This document shows positions 10,690 through 17,432 of a DNA stretch of 20,338 nucleotides, piece after piece. How positions within the stretch are numbered: the stretch's first letter is position 1; each line of letters begins with the position of its first letter. The DNA is taken from NCBI GenBank assembly GCA_038209745.1, contig JBBQXJ010000084.1, positions 1 through 20,338 on the forward strand, given 5' to 3'. Both the position numbers and the translations under genes were made by a program. This DNA is from Verrucomicrobiota bacterium (lineage in GTDB: Bacteria; Verrucomicrobiota; Verrucomicrobiia; Limisphaerales; CANJSG01). The notes under the pieces are model-generated. The model did no database searches. It saw only the letters and a program-made list of their open reading frames with translations, and was not told where the DNA came from.

Positions 10690-11367
10690 ATGCTTTCACT
10701 TATTCCCGGCTTTTTGGCCGGACTTCTCCATGTGGTGTCCGGGCCGGATCATCTGGCAGCCGTCGCACCGCTGGTGGTGAAGGACCGCCGGGTGGCCTGG
10801 GCGGCGGGGTTGCGCTGGGGGATGGGGCACGCGTCCGGGGTGGCGATCATCGCGGTGGCGGCGCTGCTGCTGCGGAACGTGCTTCCGGTGGAACACATTT
10901 CCTCATGGAGCGAGCGTCTCGTGGGAGTGTTGCTGATCGTGCTGGGCGTTTGGAGCTTCCGCGGCGCGCTGAAGAACCACATGCACACCCACGAACATCT
11001 CCACGACGGCGTCCGCCACATCCATATCCACACCCACACCGCAGGGCACGCTCCGGCCAGGGTTGGTCGCCATCTGCACCGCCATACGGCGTTTGGCATC
11101 GGCACGTTGCACGGATTGGCGGGAGGGTCGCACTTTCTGGCTTTGGTGCCGGCGTTGGCCTTGCCGACGCGCGGCGAAATGCTGGCCTACATTGCGGCCT
11201 ACGGGGTGGGAACGATCTCGGCGATGGCGGGTTTTTCAACCTTCCTCGGCTGGTTGACCCATCGGTTCGACTTGGCCGGAAACCGGGCGTATCGCGGGCT
11301 GATGTTCACCTGTTCGCTCGCGGCCGTCGGGGTGGGTGTTTTTTGGCTGACGGCGGGCGGCGAATAG
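10690..11367 (+). CDS. Nickel/cobalt transporter (UreH/SodT-like NiCoT relative)
   Basis: GLLHVVSGPDHLAAVAP, WGMGH, His-rich loop HMHTHEHLHDGVRHIHIHTH, GTLHGLAGGSH, about 6 hydrophobic segments. Start at ATG 10690. Confidence 0.85.
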   Translation: MLSLIPGFLAGLLHVVSGPDHLAAVAPLVVKDRRVAWAAGLRWGMGHASGVAIIAVAALLLRNVLPVEHISSWSERLVGVLLIVLGVWSFRGALKNHMHTHEHLHDGVRHIHIHTHTAGHAPARVGRHLHRHTAFGIGTLHGLAGGSHFLALVPALALPTRGEMLAYIAAYGVGTISAMAGFSTFLGWLTHRFDLAGNRAYRGLMFTCSLAAVGVGVFWLTAGGE

Positions 11368-11490
11368 TGGGCGGTTCGAGTAGGCGTCGTCATGTGTCCG
11401 ATTGGGCCACCGGCGAGCGGCAACCTTTTTCTCGCCAACCAGCGGACGGTTCCGTCATTTTCGCCCGTCGATCTGCGACGCATTGAAACT

Positions 11491-12813
11491 ATGGATTTGA
11501 AGCTTCCAACGCTCGGTGAAGGGGCGGATTCCGGCACAGTGGTGGCCATCCTCGTCAAAGAGGGCGACACCATTGCCAAAGGCCAGAACGTCCTCGAGCT
11601 CGAGACCGGCAAGGCCGTCTCGCCCATTCCCGCCTCTGCCGGAGGCAAGATCACCAAGATCACCGTCAGCGAAGGCCAGAAGATCTCGGTCGGCGCCGTG
11701 ATCCTCCAGATGGAGGGTGGTGCCGGTGAGGCTGCGGCTCCGGCTGCGAATCCTGCTGCCAAGGCGTCCGCGCCCAAAGCGGCCGGACCGGCCAAGAAGA
11801 GGACCGTCGCCGCCGCGCCCGTGGAAGAGGCGGGCGAAGTGGAGGGTCTCGACGAACCGTTCGACGACGAAACGCCGGTGCCTCCCGCGTCGCAGACGGT
11901 TCGTTGGATGGCCGACACGCTCGACATCGACCTGCGCGCGATTGGCGGTTCCGGCCAGGGCGGGCGCGTGACGACGGATGATTTCAAGGGCTACATTTCC
12001 CGGCTGCGTGGTTTCGCCGCCCGGGCCTTGGCTCCGAAGGCGGAAGCCGTCGCCGCTGCACCGATCAAGAAGACCACGCCGCTGCCGGACTTCGCCCAGT
12101 TCGGTTCGATCCTGAAGAAGCCGATGTCCAGCCTGCGCAAGGTCATCGCGCAGCGCATGGCGGAAAACGCGGCGACCATCCCGCACGTCACCCAGTTCGA
12201 GAGCGTGGACATCACGGATCTGATGGCGTTGCGCAAACGCCATATGGCGGCCTACGAGGCCAAGGGCGGCAAGCTCACGCTGACCTGCTTCGTCATCAAG
12301 GCGCTGACCCAAACGCTGAAGAAGTATCCCATCTTCAATTCGTCCGTGGACGAGGCGAACGAGGAGTTCATCCTCAAGGAATACATCAACATCGGCCTCG
12401 CGGTGGACACCGAGCAGGGCCTGTTCGTCCCCGTCATCAAGGACGCGGACAAGAAGGATCTCCTCACGCTCTCGAAGGAACTGGCCGACCTCGCCGTCCG
12501 CACCCGCGACCGCAAGATCACGGCGGCCGACTTGAGTGGTGGCTCGTTCACCATCTCGAACCAGGGCGCGATCGGCGGCGGCCACTACACCCCGATCATC
12601 AACAAGCCTGAAGTCGCCATCCTCGGCGTGGGCAAGGGCAGCTTCCAGGCGGTCGTCACCGACCCGAAGGCTGGCAAGATCGAATCGCGCCTGATGATGC
12701 CCATCGCGTTGAGCTACGACCACCGCGCCATCGACGGCGGCGACGCCGTGCGCTTCACGCAGGACTTGATGGCGGCCCTCGCGGCGCTGAACGACGACTC
12801 GCTGAAACTTTGA
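11491..12813 (+). CDS. 2-oxoacid dehydrogenase E2 (dihydrolipoamide acyltransferase, probably pyruvate dehydrogenase AceF/PdhC type)
   Basis: One lipoyl domain (ELETGKAV), Ala/Pro linker, peripheral subunit-binding domain (GSGQGGRVT), catalytic FTISN, PIIN.PEVAILG, SYDHRAIDG. Start at ATG 11491. Confidence 0.93.
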   Translation: MDLKLPTLGEGADSGTVVAILVKEGDTIAKGQNVLELETGKAVSPIPASAGGKITKITVSEGQKISVGAVILQMEGGAGEAAAPAANPAAKASAPKAAGPAKKRTVAAAPVEEAGEVEGLDEPFDDETPVPPASQTVRWMADTLDIDLRAIGGSGQGGRVTTDDFKGYISRLRGFAARALAPKAEAVAAAPIKKTTPLPDFAQFGSILKKPMSSLRKVIAQRMAENAATIPHVTQFESVDITDLMALRKRHMAAYEAKGGKLTLTCFVIKALTQTLKKYPIFNSSVDEANEEFILKEYINIGLAVDTEQGLFVPVIKDADKKDLLTLSKELADLAVRTRDRKITAADLSGGSFTISNQGAIGGGHYTPIINKPEVAILGVGKGSFQAVVTDPKAGKIESRLMMPIALSYDHRAIDGGDAVRFTQDLMAALAALNDDSLKL

Positions 12814-12844
12814 ACGGAGTGATGGAGTAACGGAGCACTGGAGT
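12813..12844 (+). repeat. Octamer tandem array (GGAG-N4)x4, left arm of an inverted repeat
   Basis: AACGGAGTGATGGAGTAACGGAGCACTGGAGT, with GGAG at 12816, 12824, 12832 and 12840. Confidence 0.9.
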
Positions 12845-12845
12845 G

Positions 12846-13388
12846 ATGATGGAAGGCAGTTACCGCAACCGAAACCGTGGCTACCAGCAACTGCGAGTCT
12901 GGCAGGACGCGACGGATTTCTATGCGATGAACTCACGGGTCTTCCGATCGTGGCCTTTCGAGCTGAAGAAAGTGGCTTCGCAGGCGATCGCTTCCGCCGA
13001 CTCCGTCCATCGCAATATTGCTGAAGGCTACGCACGTCGTTCTTTGAAGGAATACATTCAGTTCCTCTACATCGCGGCCGGCTCGTTGGCGGAATCCGTT
13101 TCCGGGTTCCATGCCTACGCCAAGGCCGAGCAAATCACGACCGCCCAGTTCGATGAGCTGAACACTCTGGCCTATAAACTTGAAAACGGACTCTTGCGGC
13201 TGATTGAAAGCTTGGAGCGCAAGAAGGCCGACGGCGATTGGGTTGACACGCTGGTCTTGAAGGACAGCAACGAAGCCTATGATCTGACCGAGACAGCCTC
13301 GCCGTCCCCGATCCGATACTCCAAGACTCCTTCTCTCCAGCACTCCGTTTCCCCCCTAGTTTTCCAACATGGACCCGATCAAAACTGA
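12846..13388 (+). CDS. Four-helix-bundle protein (23S rRNA IVP/Avd-like family)
   Basis: YQQLRVWQDA, SQ...SADSVHRNIAEGY.R.S.KEYIQFLYIA.GSL.E signature. Start is ATG 12846 or 12849; the 3' end overlaps lpdA by 20 nt. Confidence 0.9.
   Translation: MMEGSYRNRNRGYQQLRVWQDATDFYAMNSRVFRSWPFELKKVASQAIASADSVHRNIAEGYARRSLKEYIQFLYIAAGSLAESVSGFHAYAKAEQITTAQFDELNTLAYKLENGLLRLIESLERKKADGDWVDTLVLKDSNEAYDLTETASPSPIRYSKTPSLQHSVSPLVFQHGPDQN
13318..13349 (-). repeat. Octamer tandem array, right arm of an inverted repeat
   Basis: ACTCCAAGACTCCTTCTCTCCAGCACTCCGTT, with CTCC at 13319, 13327, 13335 and 13343. Its reverse complement matches the left arm at 25/32 without gaps. Confidence 0.9.
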
Positions 13389-14784
13389 AGTGGTTGTTCT
13401 CGGCGCCGGCCCCGGGGGCTACGCCGCCGCATTCTACGCCGCAGACCTCGGCAAAAAGGTCATCCTCGTCGAGCACGACAAGCTCGGCGGTGTCTGCCTG
13501 AACCGAGGCTGCATCCCTTCCAAGGCGTTGCTGCACGCCACGAAACTCATTGGAGAAGCCAAGCACGCGGCCACGTTCGGCCTCGGCTTCCAGGCACCGA
13601 CCATCGATCTCGACAAGCTCCGCGCCTGGAAGGATTCCGTGGTCGCCAAGAACAGCGGCGGCATCGCGGCTCTGGCGAAGATGCGCGGCGTGACCGTCAT
13701 CATGGGCAAGGGTTATTTCGAGGATTCCTCCACCCTCCGCGTCGAGACCGCCGAAGGCCAGCAGCGCGTTCAGTTCGAGAAGGCGATCGTCGCCATCGGT
13801 TCGCGTCCGGCCCTGCCCAAGGCTTTCGACCTCGGCAATCCCCGCGTGATGACCTCCACCGAGGCGCTGGAAGTGAACGACATTCCCGAGAATCTGCTCG
13901 TCGTGGGCGGAGGCTACATCGGCATGGAACTGGGCACCGTCTACGCGAACCTCGGCTCCAAGGTCACCGTGATCGAGGCGATGGACGGCATGTTGATGGG
14001 GGCGGATCCGGACCTCGTCCGGCCGGTGCAGCAGCTCGCGGCGAAGAACTTCAAGGAGCTCCGCTTCAAGGCCAAGGTCGGCAAGATGGCCACCAAGGGG
14101 AAGCAGATCCAGGTGGTGTCCGAATACAACGGCAAGACCTACGACGAGCTCTACGACCGGGTGCTGGTCTCCGTCGGCCGTGTGCCCAACGGCCAGGACG
14201 TCGGCCTGGAGAACACCAAGGTGGAGCGCGACGAAAAGGGCTTCATCAAGGTGAACGAAAAGATGGAGACGGCCGACGCGAACATCCTCGCCATCGGCGA
14301 TATCGCCGGCGGAATTCTTCTCGCCCACAAAGCCTCGAAAGAGGCGCGCGTGGCGGTCGAAACCCTCATCGGTGAACCGATGTCCAAGAAGGACAGCGCG
14401 ATCCCGGCCGTGGTCTTCACCGATCCCGAGATCGCGTGGGTCGGCCTGACCGAGACCGAAGCCAAGGCCAAGGGCATCGAAGTGAAGGTGGCCAAGTTCC
14501 CCTGGGCCGCTTCAGGACGGGCGCTGACCTACGACCGTCCCGACGGCGTGACCAAGATCATCGCCGAGCCGGGCACCGACCGGTTGCTGGGCGTCGGTAT
14601 CGCGGGCCACGGAGCGGGCGAATTGATCGCCGAGGCCGCGTTGGCCCTCGAAATGGGGGCGAACGTCAAGGACCTCGCCCTGACCGTGCATCCGCACCCC
14701 ACTTTGTCCGAAACGATCATGGAGGCGGCCGAAGTCTACTACGGCCACTCGGCCCACTTCTTCACGAAGAAGCCGGTCCACTGA
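13369..14784 (+). CDS. lpdA: Dihydrolipoyl dehydrogenase (E3)
   Basis: GAGPGGY, redox GGVCLNRGCIPSK, GGGYIG.E, HPHPTLSE. Confidence 0.97.
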   Translation: MDPIKTEVVVLGAGPGGYAAAFYAADLGKKVILVEHDKLGGVCLNRGCIPSKALLHATKLIGEAKHAATFGLGFQAPTIDLDKLRAWKDSVVAKNSGGIAALAKMRGVTVIMGKGYFEDSSTLRVETAEGQQRVQFEKAIVAIGSRPALPKAFDLGNPRVMTSTEALEVNDIPENLLVVGGGYIGMELGTVYANLGSKVTVIEAMDGMLMGADPDLVRPVQQLAAKNFKELRFKAKVGKMATKGKQIQVVSEYNGKTYDELYDRVLVSVGRVPNGQDVGLENTKVERDEKGFIKVNEKMETADANILAIGDIAGGILLAHKASKEARVAVETLIGEPMSKKDSAIPAVVFTDPEIAWVGLTETEAKAKGIEVKVAKFPWAASGRALTYDRPDGVTKIIAEPGTDRLLGVGIAGHGAGELIAEAALALEMGANVKDLALTVHPHPTLSETIMEAAEVYYGHSAHFFTKKPVH

Positions 14785-14858
14785 TTTTCCGGCGACGAAT
14801 TGCGTCGAAGGTCTGAAGCTGCCGCCGCGGCTTTGGACCTTTCGTTTATGAACCACCG

Positions 14859-17432
14859 ATGAACGCCGACCAAAGTTCCCAACTACGGGTGACGGTTGAC
14901 GGAAAGTTTCTTCGCCTGGGCGCGGAAAAATTCTGCATCAAGGGGGTCACCTACGGGCCCTTCGCCCCGAACGGCGCGGGCGAATTCTTCGCGTCGCCCG
15001 AGCAGACGCGGGCGGACTTCGATCTGATCCAGGAACTCGGCGCAAACGCGCTCCGGATCTACTACGCGCCGCCGAAGTGGTTCATGGACCTGGCGCAGGC
15101 GCGCGGGCTGAAGCTCTTGGTCGACGTTCCGTGGAACAAGCACCTTTGTTTCCTGGAGGAGAAACGGCACCGGGACGAAGCGATCGCGGCCGTGCGGAAG
15201 ACGGTGCAGGACTGCGGCGGACACCCGTCGGTGCTGGCTTTCAGCATCGTCAACGAGATCCCGGCCGACGTCGCCCGCTGGAGCGGAGCCGGCAAAATGG
15301 CCGAATTCCTAGACGAGTTGATCGAGGTCGCGAAAGCGTGCGATCCCGGTTGCCTGTGCACGATGGGGAACTACCCGCCCACGGAGTTCCTGCGGCCGCG
15401 CAACTTGGACTTCATGATGTTCAACGTCTATCTGCACCAGCAGAAGCCGTTCGAAAACTATTTGGCGCGGTTGCAGATGATCGCGGACACCAAGCCGTTG
15501 GTTCTCGGGGAGTTTGGGCTCGACTCCATCCGCGAGGGTGAGGCGCACAAGTGCGATGTGTTGGGGTGGAAGATCGAGACGGGCTTCCGCGGCGGCGTGG
15601 CGGGCGCGTTCGTCTATGCGTTCACCGACGATTGGTTCAAGGACGGGCGCCAGATCGACGACTGGGAGTTCGGCCTGGTCACCCGGAGCCGGGACCGCAA
15701 ACCGTCTTTCGAGACGGTGAAAGGGAAGTTCGCGCTGGCGCCGCGTTTCCCGCTGCCGTCCTGTCCGAAGGTCTCGGTCGTCGTGGCCAGCTACAACGGA
15801 GGCAAGACGCTGAGGGCCTGTCTCGAATCGCTCCAGAAGCTGAACTACGCGGATTACGAAGTGATCCTCGTGGACGACGGGTCCACCGACAATTCGCAGC
15901 AGATCGCGGCGGATCATCCGAAGGTCCGAAACCTCAAGCAGCCGAACTTGGGTCTGTCCGTCGCGCGCAACACGGGCATCCACGCGGCCACGGGCGAGAT
16001 CGTCGCCTTTACCGACTCCGATTGCCGGGCCGATGAAGATTGGCTGCACTATCTGGTCGGCGACCTGCTGAACTCACGGTTCACCGGGATCGGCGGCCAC
16101 AATTTCCTGCCGCCCGAGGATTCACCCACGGCCGCCTGCGTGATGGCGTCTCCCGGTGGCCCCGCGCATGTGATGCTGACGGACCGGATCGCGGAGCACA
16201 TTCCCGGCTGCAACATGGCCTTCTACCGATGGGCGCTGCTCGAGATCGACGGCTTCGATCCGATCTACCGGAAAGCCGGGGACGATGTGGACGTGTGCTG
16301 GCGGCTCATGCAGAAGGGCTACCGGATCGGGTTCAGCCCGGCGGGCTTCGTCTGGCACTACCGTCGCTCCACGGTGCAGGCGTATCTGAAACAGCAGCAG
16401 GGCTATGGCGAGGCCGAGGCGCTGCTCATCCGGAAACATCCCGAGTATTTCAACAGCGTCGGCGCCAGCATCTGGCATGGGCGGATCTACACCTCCGCCA
16501 AGCTAGGCGTGGAGACGCGCAAGCCGATCATCTACCACGGCGTCTTCGGCAGCGGCTTCTTCCAGACACTCTATTCGCCGCCGCCCACCATGGCGTTGAT
16601 GCTTACGACGACCCTGGAATACCACGTTCTGATCACCGTGCCGCTATTGGTGTTGTCGGTGCCGTTCCATGACTTTCTGCCGTTGGGCGTCGTTTCGGTG
16701 CTCGTTTCCTTGGCGACGTGCGTCGCCGCCGGGGCCCAGGCCGAGCTGCCGAGGACCAAGCGCCGTTGGTGGTCGAAGCCGCTGGTGGCGGTGCTGTTTT
16801 TCCTCCAGCCGATCTATCGCGGATTCGCCCGCTACCGGAGCCGACTGAGCCTGAAACAGACGCCGCCGGCCCCGGCCGGAGCCCAGCAGGCCGCCTTTCA
16901 GCTGAAAGAAAAGGGAGAGAACCTCGATGTGGTCGAATACTGGGCCGACCAATGGGTGGATCGGCTCGAATTCCTCGGCGCATTGCTCCATCGCTTGGAC
17001 GAGCAACGCTGGCAGAACAAGACCGATGCCGGCTGGAGCGAACACGACGTCGAGATCTATGGCAGCCGCTGGACCTACCTCCAGCTCACCACCGTGGCGG
17101 AACCCTACGGCGGCGGTCGCCAGCTGTTCCGCGTCCGGTTGGTGACCCGCTGGTCGCTGCTGGCGAACGTGGGTTTCTTCTCCGCCCTCGCCTTCGAGCT
17201 TCTCGTTATCGGTTTCGTGGGCAAGGCGTTCCCGTGGCTCTGGTTGATGCTGCTCCTGCAGGTGCTTTTCGCCTGGTTTCTGGAGGTGGAGCAGCGCGAC
17301 CTCCAGCGCCTGATCATCGCCATGATGGACGAGGTCGGCGGGCAGAAGGGGCTCTACAAGATCGACAAGGAATTCCGTCGGCTCAAGGCGGAGGGCAAGA
17401 CGCCCTCTCGGCTGGGGGGCGAAGCCAAATAG
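14859..17432 (+). CDS. Fusion of a clan GH-A (GH2-like) TIM barrel, a GT2 glycosyltransferase and a membrane domain
   Basis: N-terminal IKGVTY, ANALRIY, IVNEIP, LGEFG; central VDDGSTD, FTDSDC, GCNMAF, GDDVD; several C-terminal TM segments. Confidence 0.88.

What the first reader, a model, noticed from the sequence alone, without database searches (positions are those of the whole stretch)
12813..13388. Four-helix-bundle gene packaged between inverted repeats made of octamer arrays, inside the E2-lpdA operon
Seen: starting at the last base of the E2 stop codon is a 32-nt array of four GGAG-N4 units. An inverted array of four CTCC units (13318-13349) ends 19 nt before lpdA. The arms match 25/32 ungapped, the outer 9 nt perfectly, and all GGAG cores are kept while the N4 linkers vary. 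The enclosed gene has visibly more A/T-ending codons than its neighbours. Known: this family includes proteins encoded in Leptospira 23S rRNA intervening sequences (RNase III-excised stem-loops) and is structurally related to the nucleic-acid-binding pentamer Avd of DGRs; its function is unknown. Inference: this is a ~540-bp transposase-less cassette whose arms either pair in the mRNA to loop out the ORF (an mRNA intervening sequence) or provide periodic binding sites for the oligomeric protein. It could be an undescribed mobile or post-transcriptional regulatory module, and is the best candidate for a novel system here.
Basis: partly seen in the sequence, partly recalled or inferred. Interest (0 to 1): 0.82.

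Follow-up and report, generated by a model that had tools for sequence, protein, structure and literature searches.

The report
Repeat-armed four-helix-bundle gene cassette
A small gene of a very common but unexplained protein family, wrapped in two mirror-image runs of an 8-base repeat, sits as one inserted unit between two genes of a core metabolic operon; it is one copy of a widespread bacterial cassette design whose way of working is still open.

Summary
Four CTCC units (13318-13349) end 19 nt before lpdA. The arms match 25/32, and all 7 mismatches lie in the linkers.

The enclosed gene is a PF05635/TIGR02436 four-helix-bundle protein. It is an insertion: 21 of 29 related E2-lpdA junctions are 3-75 nt and empty. 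Others hold the same cassette, a deleted scar, a second PF05635 subfamily with 6-mer arms, or a hicA module. Relatives of this protein with the same TGGAGT arms sit at other sites in four genomes.

The design is general. In this order, 112 of 137 PF05635 genes have flanking inverted repeats above the control 95th percentile, mostly 7- or 8-nt arrays of 3-5 units, G-rich arm first.

My tests did not support a co-evolving RNA stem: there was no G·U excess and no unit-by-unit covariation. Conserved cores and gene-less arrays of the same unit elsewhere in the genome fit recognition-site arrays better. RNase III excision and DNA mobility remain open.

This scan has noted the same cassette kind on other DNA many times. 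I found no paper that links it to PF05635 outside rRNA.

The parts
11392..12813 (+). E2 (dihydrolipoamide acyltransferase) gene, upstream host gene; stop TGA 12811-12813
   Evidence: PF00198 264.8 bits, lipoyl and E3-binding domains; ORF list
12813..12844 (+). Left arm: four GGAG-N4 octamer units (G-rich arm). It carries TGA/TAA triplets and SD-like GGAG just before the start codons.
12846..13388 (+). Four-helix-bundle ORF (alternative starts GTG 12843, ATG 12846, ATG 12849). Pfam match covers nt 12888-13187. Predicted helices are aa 13-33, 38-63, 67-93 and 99-129.
   Evidence: PF05635 69.5 bits (cut-off 33.8); TIGR02436 73.9 bits (cut-off 24); 2gsc E 4.6e-8; AF2 model and Foldseek
13284..13388 (+). 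Read-through tail of the ORF. Relatives stop after ...SNxxYG, whereas this copy has lost that stop, runs through the right arm and overlaps lpdA by 20 nt. Probably not functional.
   Evidence: Orthologue ends; pLDDT <50 for aa 139-180; a 1-nt deletion at 13351 in two environmental contigs moves the stop to TAG right after the arm
13318..13349 (+). Right arm: four N4-CTCC octamer units (C-rich arm), inverted complement of the left arm, 25/32
13350..13368 (+). Residual native spacer before lpdA. It resembles the 21-22-nt spacer of the empty junctions in the same genus. It holds a C6 tract (13351-13356) with a length polymorphism.
13369..14784 (+). lpdA (dihydrolipoamide dehydrogenase), downstream host gene
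   Evidence: PF07992 200.3 bits, PF02852 138 bits

Best explanation
What is shown. 12813-13349 is one copy of a widespread cassette type. It is a PF05635 four-helix-bundle gene bracketed by inverted tandem arrays of a cassette-specific 7-8-nt unit, here TGGAGTnn. It was inserted as a unit into the roughly 20-nt E2-lpdA spacer. No promoter-like or terminator-like site was found around it, so it is probably transcribed with the operon.

What is inferred. The arms are primarily periodic recognition sites. The encoded protein, whose solved relatives crystallise with five chains and whose DGR relative Avd binds RNA, binds the repeated cores of its own arms on a single strand (transcript or ssDNA), roughly one unit per subunit. 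The two bound or partly paired arms close the roughly 470-nt loop. This would mask the gene's own GGAG/ATG start region, giving self-limitation. It would also bring the E2 stop next to the lpdA start, so the insert does little harm to the operon. Gene-less arrays of the same unit elsewhere in the genome would be by-products or further targets of the same recognition. How the cassette moves is unknown.
For: Insertion.
- 21 of 29 E2-lpdA junctions in relatives are 3-75 nt. These include 4 of 6 species of the same genus, with 21-22 nt.
- The same cassette sits at this junction in G010 (70% aa identity) and G027 (67%). An internally deleted scar is in G017.
- Relatives of the protein (55-64% identity) with TGGAGT/ACTCCA arms lie at other stop-to-start gaps in G046, G034 and G036.

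Generality.
- 5 of 6 paralogues in this genome have flank inverted repeats reached by 0.2-4.7% of 4000 controls (Fisher combined 4e-6).
- In 44 other genomes of the order, 112 of 137 cassettes exceed the control q95, against 41 of 992 controls. 93 of 137 exceed q99, against 10 of 992.
- In the 93, period 7 is best in 56 left and 61 right arms, period 8 in 22 and 20, and both arms share the same period in 79.
- Arrays have a median of 3.9 units and rarely reach 5 or more: 14 and 11 of 93.

Recognition rather than a co-evolving stem.
- All four cores are kept on both sides and all 7 mismatches are in the linkers.
- The true unit order pairs no better than permuted orders.
- There is no wobble excess in the sense strand.
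- 19 of 22 GCCGGAT arrays, the unit of the C12 paralogue's arms, stand alone without an inverted partner.

Unit goes with protein.
- The six paralogues are 24-39% identical and each has its own unit.
- The 48%-identical relative in G035 has TGGATTGn in both arms, a concerted one-base change.
- Relatives of the C12 protein (54-59% identity) have xGGAT-type units.
- Gene-less TGGAGT hairpins occur at 5 more loci of this genome.
- GGAG octamer arrays occur in 6 of 7 genomes that hold a close relative of the protein, against 10 of 54 without one.

Protein.
- The fold matches 2gsc with TM 0.90 and Avd chains of the DGR RNP with TM 0.79-0.86.
- Avd binds an RNA stem-loop in the DGR complex (passages of bioRxiv 10.1101/2023.10.23.563531).
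Against: No binding was tested, and the pentamer is inferred only from relatives.

The unit-protein link is leaky.
- G043 (54 hits), G049 (17) and G008 (5) have many GGAG octamer arrays but no close relative of this protein.
- G005 has 11 GCCGGAT arrays but no relative of the C12 protein, in an 85%-complete genome.
- After dropping genomes whose only hit is the arm itself or another unit type, the association is 4 of 7 against 10 of 54 (p 0.04, kin not independent).
- Shared units between a gene and its arms are also what plain common descent gives.

The permutation test has little power where units are near-identical.

One paralogue (C51) has no significant arms, and 25 of 137 surveyed genes do not pass q95.

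The arms can pair well (-36.7 kcal/mol) and the MFE fold pairs them, so a plain stem is not excluded.

Earlier notes of this scan that claimed base-by-base reading by the protein are marked 'part of it fell'.
Confidence: 0.45

Rival explanations
1. mRNA intervening sequence. The arms pair in the E2-4HB-lpdA transcript as a roughly 32-bp imperfect stem. RNase III cuts it, as in 23S rRNA IVSs, which releases the 4HB message and separates the E2 and lpdA mRNAs.
For: - The arms pair at 25/32 with -36.7 kcal/mol, and 0 of 1000 shuffles are as low. The MFE fold closes the loop.
- No promoter-like or terminator-like site lies in 11000-15000, so co-transcription is plausible.
- The genome has an RNase III gene at C3:20011-20394, 110.8 bits.
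- The Coxiella IVS has a 28-bp terminal stem around an S23p ORF and is cut by RNase III in vitro (passages of PMC4990558).
Against: - In 93 cassettes, wobble-type mismatches in the sense strand (181) are fewer than the opposite type (236).
- There is no unit-by-unit covariation between arms.
- The longest perfect run here is 9 bp, broken by 1-3-nt internal loops.
- The ORF reads through the right arm in this copy and in G035, so ribosomes would melt the stem.
- Most arrays of one resident unit stand alone (19 of 22).
- No RNA end data exist.
Confidence: 0.2
2. DNA-level mobile element of MITE type. The arrays are terminal inverted repeats used by an enzyme encoded elsewhere, or by hairpin/slippage-driven recombination. 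The 4HB gene is cargo, or an accessory, with no role at the arms. The gene-less hairpins are its miniatures.
For: - Filled, empty and scarred alleles occur at one junction.
- The same protein subfamily with the same arms sits at four or more different sites.
- A second PF05635 subfamily and a hicA module use the same junction.
- Five gene-less TGGAGT hairpins occur in this genome. Four lie in frame in variable loops of long ORFs, where same-genus orthologues are shorter.
- None of six other species of the genus has a close relative of the protein.
Against: - I saw no target-site duplication at the boundaries when comparing filled and empty junctions.
- There are no near-identical copies: the paralogues are 24-39% identical.
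- Cassette divergence (70% to G010) matches host divergence (LpdA about 71%, E2 62%). That fits long vertical residence with losses as well as it fits transfer.
- The model does not explain why each paralogue keeps its own unit, or why cores are conserved while linkers are free.
- No empty allele was seen in three environmental DNA runs, which is weak evidence.
Confidence: 0.25
3. No dedicated function. The arrays are slippage-prone simple repeats that grow in tolerant spacers and loops. Their inverted arrangement around small genes is a by-product, for example of quasi-palindrome correction.
For: - Arrays turn over quickly at the same protein loops in relatives.
- Unit numbers vary.
- Heptamer repeats are reported as abundant and unexplained in several phyla (passages of PMC4692102 and PMC4679880).
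Against: - 82% of one particular gene family is flanked by inverted arrays, against 4% of controls.
- The polarity is constant: the upstream arm has G>C in 81 of 92.
- The upper size is about 5 units.
- The whole cassette is conserved at 55-70% protein identity across families.
Confidence: 0.08

Closest known systems
ORF-bearing intervening sequences of 23S rRNA (Coxiella burnetii helix 45; Leptospira), encoding S23p
   Same: The protein family is the same (PF05635). The layout is the same: terminal inverted repeats closing a loop of about 430-540 nt that holds the ORF. The distribution is sporadic and transfer is suspected (passages of PMC4990558).
   Different: This copy sits between two protein-coding genes and not in rRNA; no Rfam match was found in 12500-13700. 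The arms are tandem octamer arrays with conserved cores, not a near-perfect unique stem. RNase III processing is unknown.
Heptamer repeat arrays of bacteria: GGGAATC in Xanthomonas with 70-75 convergent pairs (Rehm et al. 2015, PMC4692102); TAACTGA in Beggiatoaceae (MacGregor 2015, PMC4679880); heptamers in Nostoc (bioRxiv 10.1101/2022.06.06.494920); cyanobacterial STRR (recalled)
   Same: These are short 7-nt (here 8-nt) units, mostly about 4 per array. They are intergenic or lie in tolerated parts of genes. They often occur as convergent pairs, G-rich, and their partner protein is unknown (passages).
   Different: The passages I read do not mention PF05635, S23p or four-helix-bundle genes (0 occurrences). 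Here the arrays bracket such a gene, and the unit differs for each paralogue.
Avd, accessory protein of diversity-generating retroelements
   Same: The fold is the same: Foldseek TM 0.79-0.86 to 8ub7_B and 4dwl_D. Avd is a basic pentamer that binds a structured RNA element (passages).
   Different: There is no reverse transcriptase or template/variable repeat next to it; the neighbours are E2 and lpdA. Sequence identity is only 12-14%.
MITEs and in-frame palindromic elements such as Rickettsia RPEs (recalled, not from a call)
   Same: Gene-less hairpins of the same repeat family are scattered in the genome, some in frame inside conserved genes.
   Different: The copies share only the short unit, not a common full-length sequence. 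No transposase partner and no target duplication were seen.

Membership tests
PF05635 / TIGR02436 four-helix-bundle ('23S rRNA IVS protein', S23p) family | Profile match above the curated cut-off | tested here: met
   PF05635 69.5 bits against 33.8; TIGR02436 73.9 bits against 24
PF05635 / TIGR02436 four-helix-bundle family | Four-helix up-down bundle like XCC0516 / BT_0352 | tested here: met
   AF2 model with 4 helices and pLDDT 83-95 over the core. Foldseek 2gsc E 6e-5 with TM 0.90, and 2rld E 7e-4.
PF05635 / TIGR02436 four-helix-bundle family | Homopentameric ring | not tested
   Inferred only from 2gsc and 2rld, each listed with 5 chains. No complex prediction was run.
23S rRNA intervening sequence (IVS) | Inserted in a 23S rRNA helix | tested here: not met
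   It lies between E2 and lpdA. No Rfam family matched at E<=1 in 12500-13700.
23S rRNA intervening sequence (IVS) | Terminal complementary sequences that close the element into a stem-loop around the ORF | tested here: met
   25/32 arms, duplex -36.7 kcal/mol, and the MFE fold pairs them
23S rRNA intervening sequence (IVS) | Excision by RNase III | not testable with these tools
   An RNase III gene is present. The only RNA run held 5% of the words and gave no usable ends.
DGR accessory protein Avd | Encoded next to a DGR reverse transcriptase and template/variable repeats | tested here: not met
   The neighbours are E2 and lpdA.
MITE / non-autonomous transposon | Terminal inverted repeats and empty sites in relatives | tested here: met
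MITE / non-autonomous transposon | Target-site duplication and many near-identical copies | tested here: not met
   No duplication is visible at the boundaries. The paralogues are 24-39% identical. The gene-less hairpins share the unit only.

The most novel reading that the evidence does not exclude
PF05635 four-helix-bundle pentamers are the missing sequence-specific partners of the unexplained heptamer/octamer repeat arrays of bacteria (STRR, TAACTGA, GGGAATC and the like). Each paralogue recognises its own unit and is encoded between inverted arrays of that unit. The gene-less arrays in spacers, in protein loops and in rRNA (IVSs) are propagated or maintained through that recognition. This would be a protein-plus-repeat selfish system with no transposase.
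Probability: 0.25. Interest if true: 0.85.

Novelty: new variant of a known kind. Interest (0 to 1): 0.6.

Why it matters
Two old puzzles are involved. One is the function of the very large 'IVS protein / four helix bundle protein' family. The other is the origin of short-unit repeat arrays in many bacterial phyla. They meet in one compact, clonable object.

This locus is a clean case. Same-genus relatives have an empty site. Two other families carry an orthologous filled site. A scar exists, and the same junction also holds a different subfamily.

It suggests a simple cross-specificity experiment of paralogue against unit, which would give the family its first biochemical function. It also shows that such cassettes can live inside essential operons, here the 2-oxoacid dehydrogenase operon, without breaking them.

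Tried and rejected
- RNA duplex energy over long flanks (120 x 260 nt) did not separate cassettes from random positions in this 63% GC genome. Ungapped scoring with a -2 mismatch penalty was too harsh for degenerate arrays. I replaced both with a local alignment.
- Expression and processing could not be judged. One metatranscriptome run held 5% of the words. Its contig of 265 nt with 20 differences spans 12649-12913 in a relative. Contigs cannot show ends, so I draw nothing from it.
- Empty alleles in populations: none was seen in three DNA runs. The single 'skips 662' joint in X1 has a side of only 24 letters and probably comes from another organism. This is no evidence either way.
- The sense-strand wobble test and the unit-order permutation test were meant to show an RNA stem. 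Both came out null or contrary.
- Co-occurrence of GCCGGAT arrays with the C12-type protein was uninformative. Arrays occur only in this genus plus one hit elsewhere, and the protein's relatives elsewhere carry drifted units.
- The 520-nt insert at the junction in G009 (L032) is not this cassette. It holds other palindromes of 30-31 nt.
- Rfam found nothing. The promoter and terminator scans found nothing.
- Scan-notes lookup by sequence: no look-alike stretch was found.
- I considered an integron cassette and a toxin-antitoxin reading for the 4HB gene. Nothing supported them, and I ran no specific test for them.
Full report
OBSERVATION. The E2 gene (11392-12813; PF00198 264.8 bits) ends with TGA at 12811-12813. 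From 12813 run four octamers with GGAG at 12816, 12824, 12832 and 12840. On the far side of the ORF, CTCC lies at 13319, 13327, 13335 and 13343. The repeat finder reports arms 12813-12844 / 13318-13349, 32 nt and 78% complementary. The outer 9 pairs are perfect, and all 7 mismatches lie in the N4 linkers (read; binomial 0.008). The lpdA ATG (13369) follows 19 nt later.

The pattern is not chance. It has 2 hits in the window against none in 100 shuffles. It has 6 hits in the genome against 0.013 expected. The arm duplex is -36.7 kcal/mol against -17.4 +/- 3.4 for 1000 shuffles. The MFE fold of 12800-13370 pairs the arms, though the whole-fold z-score is only -1.64. GC3 is 0.69-0.70 in the ORF against 0.84 and 0.87 in the neighbours.

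THE GENE. The ORF matches PF05635 (69.5 bits, cut-off 33.8) and TIGR02436 'four helix bundle protein' (73.9 bits, cut-off 24). It also matches the solved XCC0516 (2gsc, E 4.6e-8). An AlphaFold model built on seven orthologues has helices at 13-33, 38-63, 67-93 and 99-129. It superposes on 2gsc (TM 0.90), on 2rld, and on Avd chains of the DGR complex (TM 0.79-0.86).

Relatives end at ...SNxxYG, before their right arm. This copy has lost that stop. It reads through the arm to TGA at 13386-13388 and overlaps lpdA by 20 nt. That tail is modelled as disordered (pLDDT <50). In two environmental contigs a 1-nt deletion at 13351 ends it at a TAG just after the arm. I read the tail as accidental.

IT IS AN INSERT. 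I fetched the lpdA locus of 30 genomes, and 29 show both genes.
- The E2-stop to lpdA-start gap is 3-75 nt in 21 of them. These include 4 of 6 species of the same genus, with 21-22 nt.
- Eight gaps are long.
- This genome has 558 nt.
- G010 (606 nt) holds the same cassette. It also starts right after a TGA and has TGGAGTnn / nnACTCCA arms.
- G017 (206 nt) holds an internally deleted remnant with arm relics.
- G030 and G039 (571 and 538 nt) hold a different PF05635 gene (45.9 bits for L019). The G039 copy looks frameshifted by eye and was not scanned. Their arms are 6-mer arrays.
- G002 and G004, of the same genus, hold a two-gene module with a HicA toxin domain (61 bits).
- G009 holds unrelated palindromes.
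- G027 also carries the cassette directly upstream of lpdA.

Close relatives of the protein exist in 7 of 61 genomes of the order, counting this one. Three of these sit at E2|lpdA. Those in G046, G034 and G036 (64, 61 and 55% identity) lie at other stop-to-start gaps with the same TGGAGT arms. The 48% relative in G035 has TGGATTGn in both arms. None of six other species of the genus has a close relative; the best match is 34% identical. Gene and arms therefore travel together.

Whether this copy is old with many losses or was re-acquired is open. Cassette identity to G010 (70%) is like that of LpdA (about 71%) and E2 (62%).

THE DESIGN IS GENERAL. The genome has six PF05635 genes, 24-39% identical to one another. 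By eye each sits between a stop and a start of co-directional genes, with arms of a different unit (no gene calling was done). Five of the six have flank inverted-repeat scores reached by 0.2-4.7% of 4000 random same-geometry positions. One (C51) does not, at 80%.

In 61 genomes of the order, 45 have the family. Of the 150 listed matches (91 more were not listed) I fetched all 140 non-own ones with enough margin to the contig start, and 137 could be scored.
- 112 of 137 exceed the 95th percentile of 992 shifted controls from the same loci (41 of 992 controls do).
- 93 of 137 exceed the 99th percentile (10 of 992 controls do).
- In those 93, the best period is 7 in 56 left and 61 right arms, and 8 in 22 and 20. 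It is the same in both arms in 79.
- Arrays have a median of 3.9 units, and 5 or more in only 14 and 11 of 93.
- The upstream arm has G>C in 81 of 92, and in 21 of 24 when one cassette is taken per genome. Because an inverted repeat reads the same on both strands, this means 'G-rich arm first' whichever strand is read.

HOW THE ARMS WORK: TESTS.
- (a) If a sense-RNA stem were selected, G·U-type mismatches should be favoured. They are not: 181 against 236 of the A:C type.
- (b) If each unit had to pair with its partner, the true unit order should fit better than permuted orders. It does not. The mean percentile is 0.52 in 52 usable cassettes (p 0.30). For this cassette the score is 18, against 14-22 for permuted orders, and 7 of 23 of those reach 18 or more. 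Power is low where units are identical.
- (c) Cores are conserved while linkers vary, both within and between arms.
- (d) The same units occur without a gene. TGGAGT hairpins lie at C1:124878, C33:27359, C33:43403, C39:33627 and C137:3967. Four of them are in frame in long ORFs. They sit in indel-rich loops where same-genus orthologues are shorter and other relatives carry other arrays.
- (e) GCCGGAT, the unit of the C12 cassette, forms 22 arrays, and 19 of them have no inverted partner.
- (f) Overall the genome has 101 array loci of period 7, 8 or 10, with 407 raw hits against about 23 expected.
- (g) GGAG octamer arrays occur in 6 of 7 genomes with a close relative of the protein against 10 of 54 without (p 0.0009). 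After removing trivial hits this becomes 4 of 7 against 10 of 54 (p 0.04). G043, G049 and G008 are clear exceptions.

READING. The following is shown: a PF05635 cassette with inverted unit arrays, inserted as a unit into an operon spacer, and one member of a very common design.

The following is inferred. The arms are arrays of a recognised unit rather than a co-evolving stem. The most economical partner is the protein encoded between them, because its relatives are ring oligomers and Avd binds structured RNA. Closing the loop would hide the gene's own GGAG/ATG region and bring the E2 stop close to the lpdA start. I give this 0.45.

RNase III excision (0.2) and a trans-mobilised MITE-like element (0.25) remain live and are not mutually exclusive with it. 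A neutral repeat by-product seems unlikely (0.08).

KNOWN AND NEW. ORF-bearing 23S rRNA IVSs share the protein and the stem-loop layout (passages of PMC4990558). Heptamer arrays, including 70-75 convergent pairs with mostly four units in Xanthomonas, are described but unexplained (passages of PMC4692102). MacGregor even proposed a mobile repeat-binding protein (passages of PMC4679880). [quoted passage not shown] None of the passages I read names PF05635.

Seven full-text searches found no paper that links such genes outside rRNA to inverted arrays. Subscription journals and supplements were not covered. Mazel's STRR work, RPEs and TRAP are recalled and come from no call.

This scan's own notes report the same cassette kind on other DNA many times: 1138 notes hold the search words. 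The notes include the G-rich-first rule and gene-less copies. One such note was later marked 'what was seen stands', and two with stronger claims were marked 'part of it fell'.

LIMITS. The genomes are mostly draft assemblies. Relatives are not independent. No gene calls were available. No RNA or binding data exist.

Noticed in passing
L008:2925-3361 (G002) and L012 (G004), same genus: The same E2-lpdA gap holds a two-gene module of 463-468 nt instead of the cassette. It has a small upstream ORF and a HicA-toxin-domain ORF (PF07927, 61 bits), with no obvious repeat arms. The junction is a hot spot for small selfish modules.
   Followed up: partly
G000: C18:52598, C18:58134, C26:13451, C26:15370, C32:44514 and 45108, C7:65569, C71:801 and about 25 more: A second, more abundant repeat family occurs. 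It consists of inverted arrays of a 10-nt unit (CACAGATnnA) forming hairpins with 70-490-nt loops, mostly non-coding. Two complete hairpins flank an ORF that looks like a GxxExxY / PD-(D/E)xK nuclease, by eye and recall and not scanned, at C32:44650-45100 on the minus strand.
   Followed up: partly
G000: C39:33622-33705, C137:3940-4000, C33:27355-27465, C33:43398-43500: Gene-less TGGAGT/ACTCCA hairpins lie in frame inside long ORFs. These look like a U32 peptidase, an Hsp70 and two RND pumps, by eye and not scanned. They encode peptides like TPxLQxSxTP. The sites are hypervariable loops where relatives carry other arrays, for example AATCCAG x4.5 in G008 and a 34-nt AT-rich palindrome in G001, G004 and G006.
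   Followed up: partly
G000: C39 about 33240-33300 (L177): The same U32-like gene holds a second in-frame hairpin made of AAGGCCG / CGGCCTT 7-mers. Same-genus relatives have a related but decayed sequence there.
   Followed up: no
L018, L019 (G039, G030) and L153, L171 of the survey: Cassettes whose arms have a 6-nt period (TCGTCC ... GAGGAC, or CTAATC-type units) are C- or pyrimidine-rich first. This is the reverse of the usual polarity, so they may be a distinct subclass.
   Followed up: no
L213 (G046:C72): The orthologue in G046 has an N-terminal extension that contains a nested CTCC-array hairpin in frame. Further TGGAGT hairpins lie beside the cassette.
   Followed up: no
window 13351-13356: C6 tract with a length polymorphism. 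Two environmental contigs (runs X4, X6) have C5, which ends the ORF at TAG 10 nt before lpdA instead of overlapping it.
   Followed up: yes
G000:C75:16535-17480: ATCCGGC x4 and GCCGGAT x2 lie 920 nt apart, C-rich first, around two minus-strand ORFs. This may be chance, given 22 such arrays in the genome.
   Followed up: no
L032:960-1510 (G009): The E2-lpdA gap of G009 holds 520 nt of non-coding DNA with two 30-31-nt palindromes and a 50-nt direct repeat. This is another kind of repeat insert at the same junction.
   Followed up: partly
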